A stretch of 64,000 nt of DNA from Escherichia coli (GCF_003334405.1 NZ_QOWM01000009.1), one strand, 5' to 3'; shown: positions 14,510-37,905, counted from the stretch's first letter. The notes: generated by a model not told the origin, from the letters alone. A program made the numbers and translations.

Positions 14510-15095
14510 CACTTTCTCCTTGTGCTTCGCGTTGATACAGCCGATAAGCCACCTGACCCGCCACTTTTTCCCGATGTAATGACCAGTTTGCTGGAACAGT
14601 GGGCAGACCGTTTTCGACTTCGCTTTCGACATAAATCAGGGCTTCGTCAGCCAGCCAGCCGTTATCTTCCAGTAAATTTATCGTCTCTTCTAACAAGCCA
14701 CGGCGGAACGGTGGATCGACAAACACGATATTATGCGGTGTACCTTTTTGCGCCAGTAATGACATCGCGTTGCTGTTCACCACGCGTGCATTGCCTGCTT
14801 TTAGTGTCGCCAGATTCTTAATTAACTGCTGAGAAACCGCGCGATCCATCTCAATCAACGTTGCCCCCGCAGCGTAGCGCGATAACGCTTCCAGCCCCAG
14901 CGCGCCGCTCCCGGCGAAGCAATCCAGACATTGGGCGTCAACAATGACCGGAGCCAGCCAGTTAAACAACGTTTCGCGTACGCGGTCGGTGGTGGGGCGC
15001 AGACCTGGGCTATCAGGAACCGGGAGTTTACGGCCTCGCCACTGCCCGCCAATAATGCGGATTTGGCCGCTGCCGGAATGATTCGGTTTTTTCAT
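14499..15095 (-). CDS. rsmD: 16S rRNA m2G966 methyltransferase
   Basis: 198 aa; SAM-binding motif LDCFAGSGALGLEALSR; DPPF motif. Confidence 0.9.
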   Translation of the reverse strand: MKKPNHSGSGQIRIIGGQWRGRKLPVPDSPGLRPTTDRVRETLFNWLAPVIVDAQCLDCFAGSGALGLEALSRYAAGATLIEMDRAVSQQLIKNLATLKAGNARVVNSNAMSLLAQKGTPHNIVFVDPPFRRGLLEETINLLEDNGWLADEALIYVESEVENGLPTVPANWSLHREKVAGQVAYRLYQREAQGESDAD

Positions 15096-15244
15096 GATAA
15101 ATTGCTCAATCCGCCAGATAACACATACTTGCAGGCGGTGATGTGAATTAAGTTAAGTGATAGACTATTTCATCATTTTTTTAGCTGCTATGTACATAGC
15201 GTTAACGCTGTGCCATGAAGCAACAGCGAGGAGTGTAGTCGCAA

Positions 15245-16738
15245 ATGGCGAAAGAAAAAAAACGTGGCTTTTTTTCCTGGCTGGGCTTTGGTCAAAAAGA
15301 GCAGACCCCGGAAAAAGAGACAGAAGTTCAGAATGAACAACCGGTTGTAGAAGAAATCGTTCAGGCGCAAGAGCCTGTGAAGGCCTCTGAACAAGCCGTT
15401 GAAGAGCAGCCGCAAGCGCATACTGAAGCCGAGGCGGAAACTTTTGCTGCCGACGTTGTGGAAGTCACTGAACAGGTTGCTGAAAGTGAAAAAGCGCAGC
15501 CTGAAGCGGAAGTCGTTGCACAGCCGGAACCGGTCGTAGAAGAAACGCCGGAGCCAGTGGCTATCGAACGTGAAGAGCTGCCGTTGCCGGAAGACGTCAA
15601 CGCCGAAGCGGTTTCGCCAGAAGAGTGGCAGGCTGAAGCGGAAACCGTAGAGATTGTCGAAGCGGCGGAAGAAGAAGCGGCTAAAGAAGAAATTACCGAC
15701 GAAGAGCTGGAAACGGCGCTGGCTGCCGAAGCGGCAGAAGAGGCGGTGATGGTGGTTCCTCCGGCAGAAGAAGAGCAGCCGGTGGAAGAAATCGCTCAGG
15801 AGCAGGAAAAACCGACCAAAGAAGGTTTTTTCGCGCGCCTGAAACGCAGCCTGTTAAAAACCAAAGAAAATCTCGGTTCCGGATTTATCAGCCTGTTCCG
15901 CGGTAAAAAAATCGACGATGATCTGTTTGAGGAGCTGGAAGAGCAGCTTTTGATCGCCGATGTGGGTGTGGAAACCACACGTAAAATTATCACCAATCTG
16001 ACGGAAGGCGCATCCCGCAAGCAGCTTCGTGACGCCGAGGCGCTCTATGGCCAGCTGAAAGAAGAGATGGGCGAGATTCTGGCGAAAGTCGATGAGCCGC
16101 TGAATGTTGAAGGCAAAGCGCCGTTTGTGATCCTGATGGTGGGCGTCAACGGTGTGGGTAAAACCACGACGATTGGTAAGCTGGCGCGTCAGTTTGAGCA
16201 GCAGGGTAAATCGGTGATGCTGGCGGCGGGTGATACTTTCCGTGCAGCTGCGGTTGAACAGCTTCAGGTCTGGGGTCAGCGCAACAATATTCCGGTGATT
16301 GCCCAGCATACCGGGGCGGATTCCGCCTCTGTTATCTTCGACGCCATTCAGGCAGCTAAAGCGCGTAATATCGACGTCCTGATTGCCGATACAGCCGGAC
16401 GCCTGCAGAACAAATCGCACCTGATGGAAGAGTTGAAGAAAATCGTCCGCGTGATGAAGAAACTCGACGTTGAAGCGCCGCATGAAGTTATGCTGACTAT
16501 TGATGCCAGCACCGGGCAGAACGCGGTAAGCCAGGCCAAACTGTTCCATGAAGCCGTTGGCTTAACCGGCATCACGCTAACGAAACTGGACGGCACGGCG
16601 AAAGGCGGGGTAATTTTCTCGGTGGCTGACCAGTTTGGTATCCCTATCCGCTACATTGGTGTCGGCGAACGTATTGAGGATTTGCGTCCGTTTAAGGCGG
16701 ACGACTTTATAGAGGCACTTTTTGCCCGAGAGGATTAA
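15245..16738 (+). CDS. ftsY: Signal recognition particle receptor FtsY
   Basis: 497 aa; long acidic E/A/Q-rich N-terminal A domain, then SRP GTPase NG domain (GVNGVGKTTT, DTAGR, TKLDG). Confidence 0.95.
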   Translation: MAKEKKRGFFSWLGFGQKEQTPEKETEVQNEQPVVEEIVQAQEPVKASEQAVEEQPQAHTEAEAETFAADVVEVTEQVAESEKAQPEAEVVAQPEPVVEETPEPVAIEREELPLPEDVNAEAVSPEEWQAEAETVEIVEAAEEEAAKEEITDEELETALAAEAAEEAVMVVPPAEEEQPVEEIAQEQEKPTKEGFFARLKRSLLKTKENLGSGFISLFRGKKIDDDLFEELEEQLLIADVGVETTRKIITNLTEGASRKQLRDAEALYGQLKEEMGEILAKVDEPLNVEGKAPFVILMVGVNGVGKTTTIGKLARQFEQQGKSVMLAAGDTFRAAAVEQLQVWGQRNNIPVIAQHTGADSASVIFDAIQAAKARNIDVLIADTAGRLQNKSHLMEELKKIVRVMKKLDVEAPHEVMLTIDASTGQNAVSQAKLFHEAVGLTGITLTKLDGTAKGGVIFSVADQFGIPIRYIGVGERIEDLRPFKADDFIEALFARED

Positions 16739-23084: not shown

Positions 23085-24011
23085 ATGTCTGAGCAGTTTT
23101 TGTATTTCTTGCAGCAGATGTTTAACGGCGTCACGCTGGGCAGTACCTACGCGCTGATAGCCATCGGCTACACCATGGTTTACGGCATTATCGGCATGAT
23201 CAACTTCGCCCACGGCGAGGTTTATATGATTGGCAGCTACGTCTCATTTATGATCATCGCCGCGCTGATGATGATGGGCATTGATACCGGCTGGCTGCTG
23301 GTAGCTGCGGGATTCGTCGGCGCAATCGTCATTGCCAGCGCCTACGGCTGGAGTATCGAACGGGTGGCTTACCGCCCGGTGCGTAACTCTAAGCGCCTGA
23401 TTGCACTCATCTCTGCAATCGGTATGTCCATCTTCCTGCAAAACTACGTCAGCCTGACCGAAGGTTCGCGCGACGTGGCGCTGCCGAGCCTGTTTAACGG
23501 TCAGTGGGTGGTGGGGCATAGCGAAAACTTCTCTGCCTCTATTACCACCATGCAGGCGGTGATCTGGATTGTTACCTTCCTCGCCATGCTGGCGCTGACG
23601 ATTTTCATTCGCTATTCCCGCATGGGTCGCGCGTGTCGTGCCTGCGCGGAAGATCTGAAAATGGCGAGTCTGCTTGGCATTAACACCGACCGGGTGATTG
23701 CGCTGACCTTTGTGATTGGCGCGGCGATGGCGGCGGTGGCGGGTGTGCTGCTCGGTCAGTTCTACGGCGTCATTAACCCCTACATCGGCTTTATGGCCGG
23801 GATGAAAGCCTTTACCGCGGCGGTGCTCGGTGGGATTGGCAGCATTCCGGGAGCGATGATTGGCGGCCTGATTCTGGGGATTGCGGAGGCGCTCTCTTCT
23901 GCCTATCTGAGTACGGAATATAAAGATGTGGTCTCATTCGCCCTGCTGATTCTGGTGCTGCTGGTGATGCCGACCGGTATTCTGGGTCGCCCGGAGGTAG
24001 AGAAAGTATGA
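23085..24011 (+). CDS. livH: Branched-chain amino acid ABC permease
   Basis: 308 aa multi-TM. Confidence 0.93.
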
Positions 24012-25285
24012 AACCGATGCATATTGCAATGGCGCTGCTCTCTGCCGCGATGTTCTTTGTGCTGGCGGGCGTCTTTATGGGCGTGCAACTGGAGCTGGAT
24101 GGCACCAAACTGGTGGTCGACACGGCTTCGGATGTCCGTTGGCAGTGGGTGTTTATCGGCACGGCGGTGGTCTTTTTCTTCCAGCTTTTGCGACCGGCTT
24201 TCCAGAAAGGGTTGAAAAGCGTTTCCGGACCGAAGTTTATTCTGCCCGCCATTGATGGCTCCACGGTGAAGCAGAAACTGTTCCTCGTGGCGCTGTTGGT
24301 GCTTGCGGTGGCGTGGCCGTTTATGGTTTCACGCGGGACGGTGGATATTGCCACCCTGACCATGATCTACATTATCCTCGGTCTCGGGCTGAACGTGGTT
24401 GTTGGTCTTTCTGGTCTGCTGGTGCTGGGGTACGGCGGTTTTTACGCCATCGGCGCTTACACTTTTGCGCTGCTCAATCACTATTACGGCTTGGGCTTCT
24501 GGACCTGCCTGCCGATTGCTGGATTAATGGCAGCGGCGGCGGGCTTCCTGCTCGGTTTTCCGGTGCTGCGTTTGCGCGGTGACTATCTGGCGATCGTTAC
24601 CCTCGGTTTCGGCGAAATTGTGCGCATATTGCTGCTCAATAACACCGAAATTACCGGCGGCCCGAACGGAATCAGTCAGATCCCGAAACCGACACTCTTC
24701 GGACTCGAGTTCAGCCGTACCGCTCGTGAAGGCGGCTGGGACACGTTCAGTAATTTCTTTGGCCTGAAATACGATCCCTCCGATCGTGTCATCTTCCTCT
24801 ACCTGGTGGCGTTGCTGCTGGTGGTGCTAAGCCTGTTTGTCATTAACCGCCTGCTGCGGATGCCGCTGGGGCGTGCGTGGGAAGCGTTGCGTGAAGATGA
24901 AATCGCCTGCCGTTCGCTGGGCTTAAGCCCGCGTCGTATCAAGCTGACTGCCTTTACCATAAGTGCCGCGTTTGCCGGTTTTGCCGGAACGCTGTTTGCG
25001 GCGCGTCAGGGCTTTGTCAGCCCGGAATCCTTCACCTTTGCCGAATCGGCGTTTGTGCTGGCGATAGTGGTGCTCGGCGGTATGGGCTCGCAATTTGCGG
25101 TGATTCTGGCGGCAATTTTGCTGGTGGTGTCGCGCGAGTTGATGCGTGATTTCAACGAATACAGCATGTTAATGCTCGGTGGTTTGATGGTGCTGATGAT
25201 GATCTGGCGTCCGCAGGGCTTGCTGCCCATGACGCGCCCGCAACTGAAGCTGAAAAACGGCGCAGCGAAAGGAGAGCAGGCATGA
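24008..25285 (+). CDS. livM: Branched-chain amino acid ABC permease
   Basis: 425 aa multi-TM; 4-bp overlap with livH. Confidence 0.93.
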
Positions 25286-37694: not shown

Positions 37695-37785
37695 GCGATC
37701 AGGAAGACCCTCGCGGAGAACCTGAAAGCACGACATTGCTCACATTGCTTCCAGTATTACTTAGCCAGCCGGGTGCTGGCTTTTT
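37695..37785 (+). ncRNA. ryhB: RyhB small RNA (Fur-repressed, Hfq-dependent iron-sparing sRNA)
   Basis: GCGATCAGGAAGACCCTCGCGGAGAACCTGAAAGCACGACATTGCTCACATTGCTTCCAGTATTACTTAGCCAGCCGGGTGCTGGCTTTT matches RyhB as I recall it, with terminal GC stem (gccagccgggtgctggc) and U-tract; between yhhY and yhhX as in K-12. Confidence 0.88.
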
Positions 37786-37905
37786 TTTTGATCTTTCGTT
37801 CTCAATTTATCCACGGGAGTGCTTGTGTTCGTTATGCGCACTCCAGTAGGAACCACGTCCGCTTTGCGCTAAGGTGTAAATAACCACCTTAAAAAGGACG
37901 AAATC

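What the first reader, a model, noticed from the sequence alone, without database searches (positions are those of the whole stretch)
15245..15850. Low-complexity acidic N-terminal domain of FtsY
The first ~200 codons of ftsY encode an E/A/Q/V-rich acidic repeat region (EAEAETFAADVVEVTEQVAESEKAQPEAEVVAQPEPVVEET...) preceding the GTPase domain. This produces codon-level repetitiveness and the frame-shifted spurious ORFs seen in the track over this interval.
Basis: seen in the sequence. Interest (0 to 1): 0.15.

Follow-up and report, generated by a model that had tools for sequence, protein, structure and literature searches.

The report
Acidic disordered A domain of FtsY
This stretch encodes the well-studied glutamate-rich, floppy N-terminal "A domain" of the E. 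coli SRP receptor FtsY, a tether to the membrane and the SecYEG channel, so the finding is correct but ordinary.

Summary
Window 15245-16738 (+) is E. coli ftsY (497 aa), 100% identical to RefSeq chromosomes and set in rsmD / ftsY-ftsE-ftsX synteny. Codons 1-202 (15245-15850) are 27% Glu, 15% Ala, 11% Val, 8% Gln and 8% Pro, with net charge -43. No Pfam or NCBIfam model covers them. They are predicted disordered by FoldIndex (-0.22) and by AlphaFold2 (pLDDT about 46-64, no secondary structure before residue 195). This is the FtsY A domain, shown by NMR to be intrinsically disordered (PMC5094494).

The DNA is the most self-repetitive 606-nt tile in the window, and all 42 repeated 8-mers are in frame. 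Shuffling the codons reproduces that level, so it is composition (42 GAA codons), not repeat units. The segment has only 15% T and is among the poorest in stop codons. That explains the alternative-frame ORFs, none of which is annotated in 5,426 genomes.

Added value:
- Natural E. coli alleles run from 458 to 542 aa.
- Every internal indel is in frame and falls at residues 86-175; those examined are bounded by short direct repeats.
- dN/dS is 0.175 for the A domain against 0.009 for NG.

Verdict: already known, low interest.

The parts
15245..16738 (+). ftsY coding sequence (497 codons plus stop), the SRP receptor
   Evidence: ORF. 100% identical to RefSeq E. coli ftsY. TIGR00064 385 bits. Matches PDB 2yhs and 5gad over 1-497.
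15245..15286 (+). Residues 1-14 (MAKEKKRGFFSWLG): basic and aromatic N-terminal lipid-binding segment of the A domain
   Evidence: Net charge positive. Comparable K/R- and F/W-rich N-termini recur in relatives: the first 20 aa are net positive in 88 of 127. NMR shows lipid binding at Gly8-Lys18 (PMC5094494).
15287..15808 (+). Residues 15-188: acidic, low-complexity, intrinsically disordered core of the A domain
   Evidence: 30% Glu, net charge -49, entropy 3.23 bits (residues 15-196). FoldIndex -0.27. AF2 pLDDT about 46-64 with no secondary structure. No Pfam or NCBIfam coverage. NMR shows disorder and electrostatic SecYEG binding (PMC5094494).
15809..15865 (+). Residues 189-207: membrane-targeting sequence, a basic amphipathic helix at the A/N junction (the finding's end, 15850, cuts through it)
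   Evidence: Highest helical hydrophobic moment in residues 1-240 (FFARLKRSLLK, 0.70). First AF2 helix is 195-202. Described in PMC2928010 and PMC5094494.
15866..16735 (+). NG domain (N helical bundle plus SRP54-type GTPase)
   Evidence: Pfam SRP54_N 210-275 and SRP54 293-493. AF2 pLDDT above 90. No indels in any E. coli allele examined.
15615..15742 (+). Direct-repeat pair D16 (CGCCAGAAGAG / CGGCAGAAGAG, 117 nt apart), which bounds the natural 39/40-codon in-frame deletion of strain PSJ-07
   Evidence: Repeat found. The deletion junction ...TTTCGCCA|GAAGAGGCG... is seen in the DNA alignment. That ftsY is annotated at 458 aa.
15496..15648 (+). Direct-repeat pair D9 (GCAGCCTGAAGCGGAAGTCGT / GCAGGCTGAAGCGGAAACCGT, 132 nt = 44 codons apart), which matches the junction of a natural 44-aa tandem duplication (542-aa allele P0001)
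   Evidence: Repeat found. P0001 carries ...WQAEAE|VVAQPEP... with the 44-aa unit twice. The junction is inferred from the protein sequence only.
15188..15853 (-). 222-codon stop-free antisense stretch (codon-for-codon frame) and the shorter alternative-frame ORFs inside it: by-products, not genes
   Evidence: An equally long stretch (15854-16561) lies over NG. No annotation in 5,426 genomes. Substitutions against a divergent allele concentrate at ftsY third positions, 44 of 75.

Best explanation
Window 15245-15850 encodes the A domain of the E. coli SRP receptor FtsY: residues 1-196 plus the first residues of the junction helix. It is a strongly acidic, Glu/Ala/Val/Gln/Pro-rich, intrinsically disordered polypeptide. 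Two short, basic, amphipathic lipid-binding segments flank it: residues 1-14 and the membrane-targeting sequence at about 189-207.

Published mechanism. The two basic ends dock on anionic phospholipids. The acidic centre binds the basic cytoplasmic C4/C5 loops of SecY non-specifically by electrostatics while staying disordered. The flexible chain thereby tethers the NG GTPase domain near the translocon, where it captures ribosome-bound SRP.

DNA-level consequences. A restricted codon set (42 GAA among 202 codons) makes the segment purine-rich and T-poor. That produces many short in-frame direct repeats and few stop codons in any frame, and so spurious alternative-frame ORFs. The short repeats also make the segment prone to in-frame deletions and duplications, which are tolerated because function depends on charge and flexibility rather than on exact sequence.

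What is shown here: gene identity, composition, predicted disorder, the repeat and stop statistics, the natural indels, and the relaxed constraint. What comes from the literature: lipid and SecY binding, and dispensability. What is inferred: that the indels arise by slippage or unequal recombination at the short repeats.
For: Identity:
- 100% identical to annotated ftsY; found in all 5,426 genomes.
- TIGR00064 scores 385 bits against a cut-off of 260.7, aligned over residues 222-493.
- Pfam domains lie only at 210-493.
- Solved E. coli NG structures start at residues 194-224.

Composition and charge.

Disorder:
- FoldIndex is -0.22 for residues 1-196 and +0.20 for NG.
- AF2 gives pLDDT about 46-64 and no secondary structure for 1-180, a first helix at 195-202, and above 90 for NG.
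- NMR on this protein shows disorder, lipid binding at Gly8-Lys18 and the MTS, and salt-sensitive SecYEG binding with Kd 0.18 uM (PMC5094494).
- SecY cross-links to residues 143-176 (PMC4602035).
- The junction helix needs Phe196, and NG+1 complements FtsY depletion (PMC2928010).

DNA statistics:
- 42 in-frame 8-mer pairs against 12.8 +/- 5 for dinucleotide shuffles and 35 +/- 13 for codon shuffles.
- 26 stops against a window median of 43; T 15%.
- Alternative-frame stops: 26 of 1006 codons against 64 of 1471 in NG, Fisher p = 0.02.

Evolution:
- Alleles of 458, 495, 497, 498, 499, 504, 514 and 542 aa exist. All internal indels fall at residues 86-175 and none in NG.
- dN/dS is 0.175 for A and 0.009 for NG against a divergent allele.
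- In 136 relatives the N-terminal extension is 4-944 aa, median 178, and often acidic with a basic N-terminus.
Against: Nothing contradicts the identification. Caveats:
- The lipid-binding and SecY-binding steps were not tested here. They rest on published work with the K-12 protein, and this allele differs from the four-allele consensus at a few positions (A122, T157 with a one-residue gap, Q270, A292).
- The A domain is dispensable in laboratory complementation (Eitan and Bibi 2004, cited in PMC2928010 and PMC4602035). A natural strain lacks residues 126-164. The tether's contribution is therefore modest.
- The 514-aa and 542-aa expansion alleles each come from a single contig and could be assembly artefacts.
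- Only 54 of 127 relatives with an extension of at least 40 aa are net acidic by more than 0.1 per residue, so acidity is common but not universal.
Confidence: 0.95

Rival explanations
1. The segment is a true repeat array: descendants of a duplicated peptide or DNA unit forming a repeat protein, rather than a compositionally biased sequence.
For: A degenerate tandem pair AQPEAEVV/AQPEPVVE and the recurring PVVEE, AEAET and EAAEE peptides. The 4-mer peptide excess is 12 against 5.2 +/- 3.2 (41 of 1000 shuffles reach it) and the 5-mer excess is 3 against 0.7 (54 of 1000). TRF finds a 15-nt array of 2.2 copies at 15659-15691. One allele (P0106) has the 8-aa unit expanded to four copies.
Against: Codon-order shuffles reproduce the DNA k-mer repetition: 83 of 300 reach the observed value at k=8, 67 of 300 at k=10 and 128 of 300 at k=12. 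TRF finds nothing with more than about 2 copies. There is no consistent period among the 17 direct-repeat families. The protein-level excess is only marginal.
Confidence: 0.07
2. One of the long alternative-frame or antisense open frames over 15188-15853 is a real overlapping gene.
For: A 222-codon stop-free antisense stretch spans exactly the A-domain DNA. ORFs of 77 and 79 aa with start codons lie on the minus strand.
Against: The tile is T-poor (15%) and stop-poor in all frames, which by itself predicts long open frames. An equally long antisense open stretch (236 codons) covers the NG domain. Only ftsY is annotated here in 5,426 RefSeq genomes. No Rfam family matches here. Against a divergent allele, 44 of 75 substitutions fall at ftsY third positions. 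The translations are S/T/C/A-rich, complement-of-GAA artefacts.
Confidence: 0.02
3. The acidic core is functionally neutral filler: a tolerated spacer with no selected role beyond linking the N-terminal lipid anchor to NG.
For: NG+1 complements FtsY depletion and targets only 26% less efficiently in vitro (PMC2928010). [quoted passage not shown] There is a natural 39-aa deletion allele. Constraint is about 20-fold weaker than on NG. Extension length ranges from 4 to 944 aa.
Against: dN/dS of 0.175 is still well below 1 (33 nonsynonymous changes over 460 sites against 42 synonymous over 128). All observed indels preserve the frame. Acidic composition recurs in many lineages although the sequence is not conserved. 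The isolated A domain binds SecYEG with the same 0.18 uM Kd as full-length FtsY, and binding is salt-sensitive (PMC5094494).
Confidence: 0.15

Closest known systems
E. coli K-12 FtsY A domain (residues 1-196/197; PDB constructs 2YHS and 5GAD carry the sequence; NMR study PMC5094494)
   Same: Same gene and locus, and a full-length match to the E. coli FtsY chains in the PDB (1030.9 bits over residues 1-497). Same three-part layout: a basic N-terminus, an acidic disordered core and the MTS. Same composition.
   Different: Only allelic differences. Compared with three other E. coli alleles, this window differs at A122, at T157 with a one-residue gap, at Q270 and at A292.
Eukaryotic SR-alpha N-terminal region (SRX domain plus charged disordered linker before NG); from general knowledge, not tested here
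   Same: A homologous NG core preceded by a membrane-tethering N-terminal region that includes a charged, flexible linker.
   Different: SR-alpha is anchored through a folded SRX domain bound to the integral membrane GTPase SR-beta. FtsY has no SR-beta and uses amphipathic lipid-binding helices and direct SecY contacts (PMC2928010).
FtsY homologues with other N-terminal extensions: short or absent A domains, K/N-rich basic extensions, and COX15-CtaA membrane-domain fusions
   Same: The NG core is conserved, 42-70% identical. The N-terminal part still appears to serve membrane association.
   Different: Extension length is 4-944 aa. About 20 of 136 representatives replace the acidic disordered region with a hydrophobic extension of about 340-370 aa; in the one checked, P0133, this is a polytopic COX15-CtaA domain (E 6e-70).

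Membership tests
FtsY / SRP receptor (TIGR00064; SRP54-type GTPase) | Full-length match to the curated equivalog model above its trusted cut-off | tested here: met
   TIGR00064 scores 385 bits against a cut-off of 260.7, aligned over residues 222-493. The next-best model, ffh, scores 232.5, below its cut-off of 473.2.
FtsY / SRP receptor (TIGR00064; SRP54-type GTPase) | N helical-bundle domain followed by an SRP54-type G domain with GTPase motifs | tested here: met
   Pfam SRP54_N 210-275 (E 1.7e-14) and SRP54 293-493 (E 1.2e-79). GVNGVGKTT at 300-308, DTAGR at 382-386 and TKLD at 446-449 are visible in the translation and invariant in the 65-sequence alignment.
FtsY / SRP receptor (TIGR00064; SRP54-type GTPase) | Genomic context ftsY-ftsE-ftsX, with rsmD divergent upstream, as in E. 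coli | tested here: met
   rsmD and yhhL upstream on the minus strand, ftsE and ftsX immediately downstream.
Proteobacterial FtsY A domain | N-terminal extension before the N domain that is strongly acidic and of low complexity | tested here: met
   Residues 1-196 hold 58 acidic and 12 basic residues and are 28% Glu. Entropy is 3.37 bits, against 3.96 for residues 203-497.
Proteobacterial FtsY A domain | Intrinsic disorder of the central region | tested here: met
   FoldIndex is negative in every 51-aa window centred up to residue 206. AF2 gives pLDDT about 46-64 and no DSSP secondary structure for 1-194. Experimental NMR confirmation is in PMC5094494.
Proteobacterial FtsY A domain | Basic amphipathic lipid-binding segments at the extreme N-terminus and at the A/N junction (MTS, about 195-207) | tested here: met
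   MAKEKKRGFFSWLG is net positive. FFARLKRSLLK has the highest hydrophobic moment, 0.70, and is helical in the AF2 model. Lipid binding itself was not tested; it is taken from PMC5094494 and PMC2928010.
Proteobacterial FtsY A domain | Binding of the acidic core to the SecY cytoplasmic loops C4/C5 | not testable with these tools
   Literature only: PMC5094494 (Kd 0.18 uM, salt-sensitive) and PMC4602035 (cross-link to residues 143-176).
Tandem-repeat protein or DNA repeat array | A unit repeated head to tail more often than composition alone predicts | tested here: not met
   TRF finds only two arrays of about 2 copies. Codon shuffling reproduces the k-mer repetition, with 83 of 300 shuffles reaching the observed value. 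The peptide k-mer excess is marginal.

The most novel reading that the evidence does not exclude
The A-domain coding sequence is a natural hotspot for in-frame length change. Microhomology between short GAA/GCG-rich direct repeats generates deletions and duplications. E. coli populations therefore carry FtsY tethers from about 157 to 241 residues (alleles of 458-542 aa), and this length variation might tune how FtsY samples the translocon. The length polymorphism itself, and its confinement to residues 86-175, are shown here. An adaptive or functional consequence is not.
Probability: 0.2. Interest if true: 0.3.

Novelty: already known. Interest (0 to 1): 0.08.

Why it matters
It matters little for discovery. 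The FtsY A domain has been studied for many years, and its disorder, lipid binding and SecY binding are established.

The check is useful for annotation. It explains why gene finders show stacked alternative-frame ORFs over this interval: the composition is T-poor and stop-poor. It also confirms that these ORFs should be ignored.

The small added observation is that all natural E. coli FtsY length variants map to the A domain, and that those examined at the junction sit at short direct repeats. This is a tidy illustration of how disordered, low-complexity regions evolve by in-frame indels while the catalytic core stays fixed.

Tried and rejected
1. True tandem repeats: TRF, the codon-shuffle test and the peptide k-mer test. 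Rejected in favour of compositional bias.
2. An overlapping gene in another frame: stop statistics, RefSeq annotation and the codon-position pattern of substitutions. Rejected.
3. A structured RNA in the segment: the Rfam gathering scan of the whole window found only RyhB at 37724-37788.
4. Promoter and terminator scan of 14900-16000: one weak promoter-like and one terminator-like match, both inside rsmD and neither above shuffle expectation. Uninformative.
5. The first homologue search returned only near-identical E. coli and Shigella clusters. It served for allele lengths but not for distant A domains, so the search of 50%-identity representatives was used for that.
6. The TOP-IDP mean (0.30 against 0.08) points the same way as FoldIndex. 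I recalled its cut-off from memory and do not rely on it.
7. Literature search for the COX15::FtsY fusion: two papers hold all three search terms, but neither title nor abstract concerns such a fusion and I did not open them.

Full report
**What is there.**
The interval 15245-15850 is the first 202 codons of a 497-codon ORF on the plus strand, 15245-16738. A 3.1-kb query around it is 100% identical to several RefSeq E. coli chromosomes. It is present once (twice in a few) in all 5,426 complete E. coli genomes, always annotated as ftsY. rsmD and yhhL lie upstream on the other strand, and ftsE and ftsX lie immediately downstream.

The protein passes the curated FtsY equivalog model: TIGR00064 scores 385 bits against a cut-off of 260.7, aligned over residues 222-493. 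Pfam places SRP54_N at 210-275 and the SRP54 GTPase domain at 293-493, and nothing on residues 1-209. In the PDB the full-length sequence matches E. coli FtsY entries 2YHS and 5GAD. The many NG-domain structures begin at residues 194-224.

**Checking the observation.**
- Peptide: the quoted peptide is residues 61-101.
- Composition: residues 1-202 are E 27%, A 15%, V 11%, Q 8%, P 8%, with 58 acidic and 15 basic residues (net -43). Entropy is 3.42 bits against 3.96 for the rest of the protein. Every 25-residue window from 16 to about 180 carries a net charge of -5 to -10.
- Disorder: FoldIndex is -0.22 for residues 1-196 and +0.20 for NG, and is negative in every 51-residue window centred up to residue 206.
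- Structure prediction: an AlphaFold2 model built on a 65-sequence alignment gives block-mean pLDDT of about 46-64 and no secondary structure for residues 1-180. The first helix is at 195-202, and most of the NG core (249 residues) is above 90.

The descriptive observation is therefore confirmed. Three small corrections apply:
- The A domain as defined in the literature ends at Phe196 (window 15832). The finding's end at 15850 therefore cuts into the junction helix.
- Pro is as enriched as Gln.
- 'Repeat' is too strong a word (see below).

**Is the DNA repetitive beyond chance?**
Yes against a base-composition null, and no against a codon-composition null.
- The 606 nt contain 42 pairs of identical 8-mers, every one at an offset divisible by three. 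Dinucleotide-preserving shuffles give 12.8 +/- 5.0 (maximum 33 of 300). The comparable stretch of the NG domain has 6.
- Tiles over this region are the most self-repetitive in the whole 64-kb window.
- Shuffling the order of the codons gives 35.3 +/- 13.2 pairs, and 83 of 300 shuffles reach the observed value. The results at k=10 and k=12 agree.
- Tandem Repeats Finder reports only two arrays of about 2 copies. The 17 direct-repeat families have no common period.
- At the protein level the excess of repeated 4-mers and 5-mers over residue shuffles is marginal: 41 and 54 of 1000 shuffles reach the observed values.

The repetitiveness is thus the footprint of a very restricted codon set, not a repeat array. 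GAA occurs 42 times, GCG 15, GAG 13, CAG 11 and CCG 11. First codon positions are 57% G, second positions 44% A, and the strand is 63% purine.

**The alternative-frame ORFs.**
The segment is 15% T, against 24% for the window. It contains 26 stop triplets over six frames, against a window median of 43. That is the fifth-lowest of 1,268 tiles.

Alternative-frame stop density is 26 of 1006 codons, against 64 of 1471 over the NG domain (Fisher p = 0.02). One antisense frame is open across the entire A-domain DNA (15188-15853, 222 codons). A stop there would need a TTA, CTA or TCA sense codon, and Leu and Ser are scarce in this domain. The NG domain carries an equally long antisense open stretch (15854-16561).

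Several results argue against any of these being a gene:
- Nothing but ftsY is annotated under the interval in any of the 5,426 genomes.
- Rfam finds nothing here.
- Against a divergent allele, 44 of 75 A-domain substitutions fall on ftsY third positions.

**What it does.**
This is taken from the literature on this very protein.
- NMR of full-length FtsY and of FtsY-A207 shows near-random-coil chemical shifts and fast dynamics for Ile38-Ala140. Transient structure appears only at Gly8-Lys18, Asp152-Ala161 and Glu188-Ala197 (PMC5094494).
- The acidic centre binds SecYEG while remaining disordered. Its Kd of 0.18 uM equals that of full-length FtsY and weakens with salt (PMC5094494).
- SecY cross-links to FtsY residues 143-176 (PMC4602035).
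- The amphipathic junction helix (197-207 plus Phe196) is the main site of lipid activation. The rest of the A domain modulates that effect about two-fold (PMC2928010).
- FtsY-NG+1 complements FtsY depletion and targets only 26% less efficiently in vitro (PMC2928010).

My own sequence analysis agrees with this layout. MAKEKKRGFFSWLG is net positive. FFARLKRSLLK has the highest helical hydrophobic moment in the first 240 residues and is the first helix of the AF2 model.

The best-supported mechanism is therefore a flexible, electrostatically driven tether. Two basic lipid anchors flank an acidic chain that samples the basic loops of SecY and keeps the NG GTPase near the translocon.

**Evolutionary behaviour (the added value of this check).**
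Within E. coli, nucleotide identity is similar for the A and NG parts, but length variation is confined to the A part.
- The NG query always matches without gaps, its full 888 nt in 11 of the 12 rows listed. The A query matches over 489, 600, 606 or 609 nt.
- Annotated alleles of 458, 495, 497, 498 and 504 aa were retrieved.
- Among the 120 closest protein clusters the lengths are 495 (86 clusters), 497 (24), 499 (6), and 498, 502, 514 and 542 (one each).
- Every internal indel lies at residues 86-175. The only other length change is a 5-residue C-terminal extension in one cluster.

Three indels map to short direct repeats:
- The 39/40-codon deletion of strain PSJ-07 joins the two copies of an 11-nt repeat 117 nt apart (CGCCAGAAGAG / CGGCAGAAGAG).
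- The 44-aa tandem duplication of the 542-aa allele has its junction in a 21-nt repeat pair 132 nt (44 codons) apart. This junction is inferred from protein sequence only.
- The 514-aa allele has the degenerate AQPEAEVV unit expanded.

Against the most divergent allele, dN/dS is 0.175 for the A domain and 0.009 for NG, with 7 gap columns against none. Constraint is relaxed about 20-fold but is still purifying.

Across 136 representatives of 50%-identity clusters with a complete NG, the N-terminal extension ranges from 4 to 944 residues, median 178. Of the 127 with at least 40 residues, 54 are net acidic by more than 0.1 per residue and 88 have a net-positive first 20 residues. Many of these begin with a recognisable M..FFS.L/FGKKK-type start. 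What is conserved is the layout, not the sequence.

**Comparison with what is known, and verdict.**
This is the FtsY A domain itself, not merely something like it. All defining features that can be tested by computation are met. The biochemical features are documented for this protein.

The finding is correct, descriptive and already known. The only nuance is that 'repeat region' should read 'compositionally biased region with a few short direct repeats'.

Interest is low. The most novel reading the data leave open is that the repeat-mediated length polymorphism of the tether has functional consequences. I rate that unlikely and of modest interest.

Noticed in passing
P0133 and about 20 similar representatives; locus L005 268-2292: About 20 of the 136 closest FtsY cluster representatives (638-674 aa) carry a hydrophobic N-terminal extension of about 340-370 aa in place of the acidic A domain. 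In the one checked, P0133, this is a polytopic COX15-CtaA (heme A synthase-like) membrane domain (Pfam PF02628 at residues 4-310, E 6e-70), and the protein is a single ORF on a metagenome contig. It looks like a natural version of an NG domain fused to an integral membrane anchor. The two papers that hold the search terms (FtsY, COX15, fusion) were not opened; their titles and abstracts do not concern such a fusion.
   Followed up: partly
window 37724-37788 (+): The RyhB small RNA matches Rfam RF00057 at 83.1 bits against a gathering score of 55. It is the only Rfam family hit in the 64-kb window.
   Followed up: no
window 15253-15278 (+): An A8 run and a T7 run six bases apart form a 10-nt inverted repeat (AGAAAAAAAA / TTTTTTTCCT) at ftsY codons 3-12. 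It follows from the Lys-Lys ... Phe-Phe codons of the N-terminal lipid-binding motif. Whether these homopolymers affect translation or slippage was not examined.
   Followed up: no
window about 23700-24650: This is the only region of the window with fewer six-frame stop triplets than the ftsY A-domain tile: 24-25 per 606 nt against a median of 43. Its content was not examined.
   Followed up: no
L001 (NZ_AP027619.1, strain PSJ-07) 1201-2577: A human faecal E. coli isolate carries a 458-aa FtsY that lacks residues 126-164 of the A domain. The deletion removes the transient helix 152-161 and most of the SecY cross-linking peptide 143-176. The gene is annotated as intact.
   Followed up: partly
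P0173, P0257, P0205, P0189, P0177, P0198: Some FtsY relatives have K/N-rich, net-basic N-terminal extensions of 70-125 aa instead of acidic ones. They probably come from AT-rich genomes. This shows that the charge sign of the extension is not universal.
   Followed up: no
P0013 (502 aa): One E. coli FtsY cluster ends in ...[13 protein letters not shown] instead of ...EALFARED. This looks like a frameshift near the stop codon that reads towards ftsE. It comes from a single contig and may be a sequencing error.
   Followed up: no
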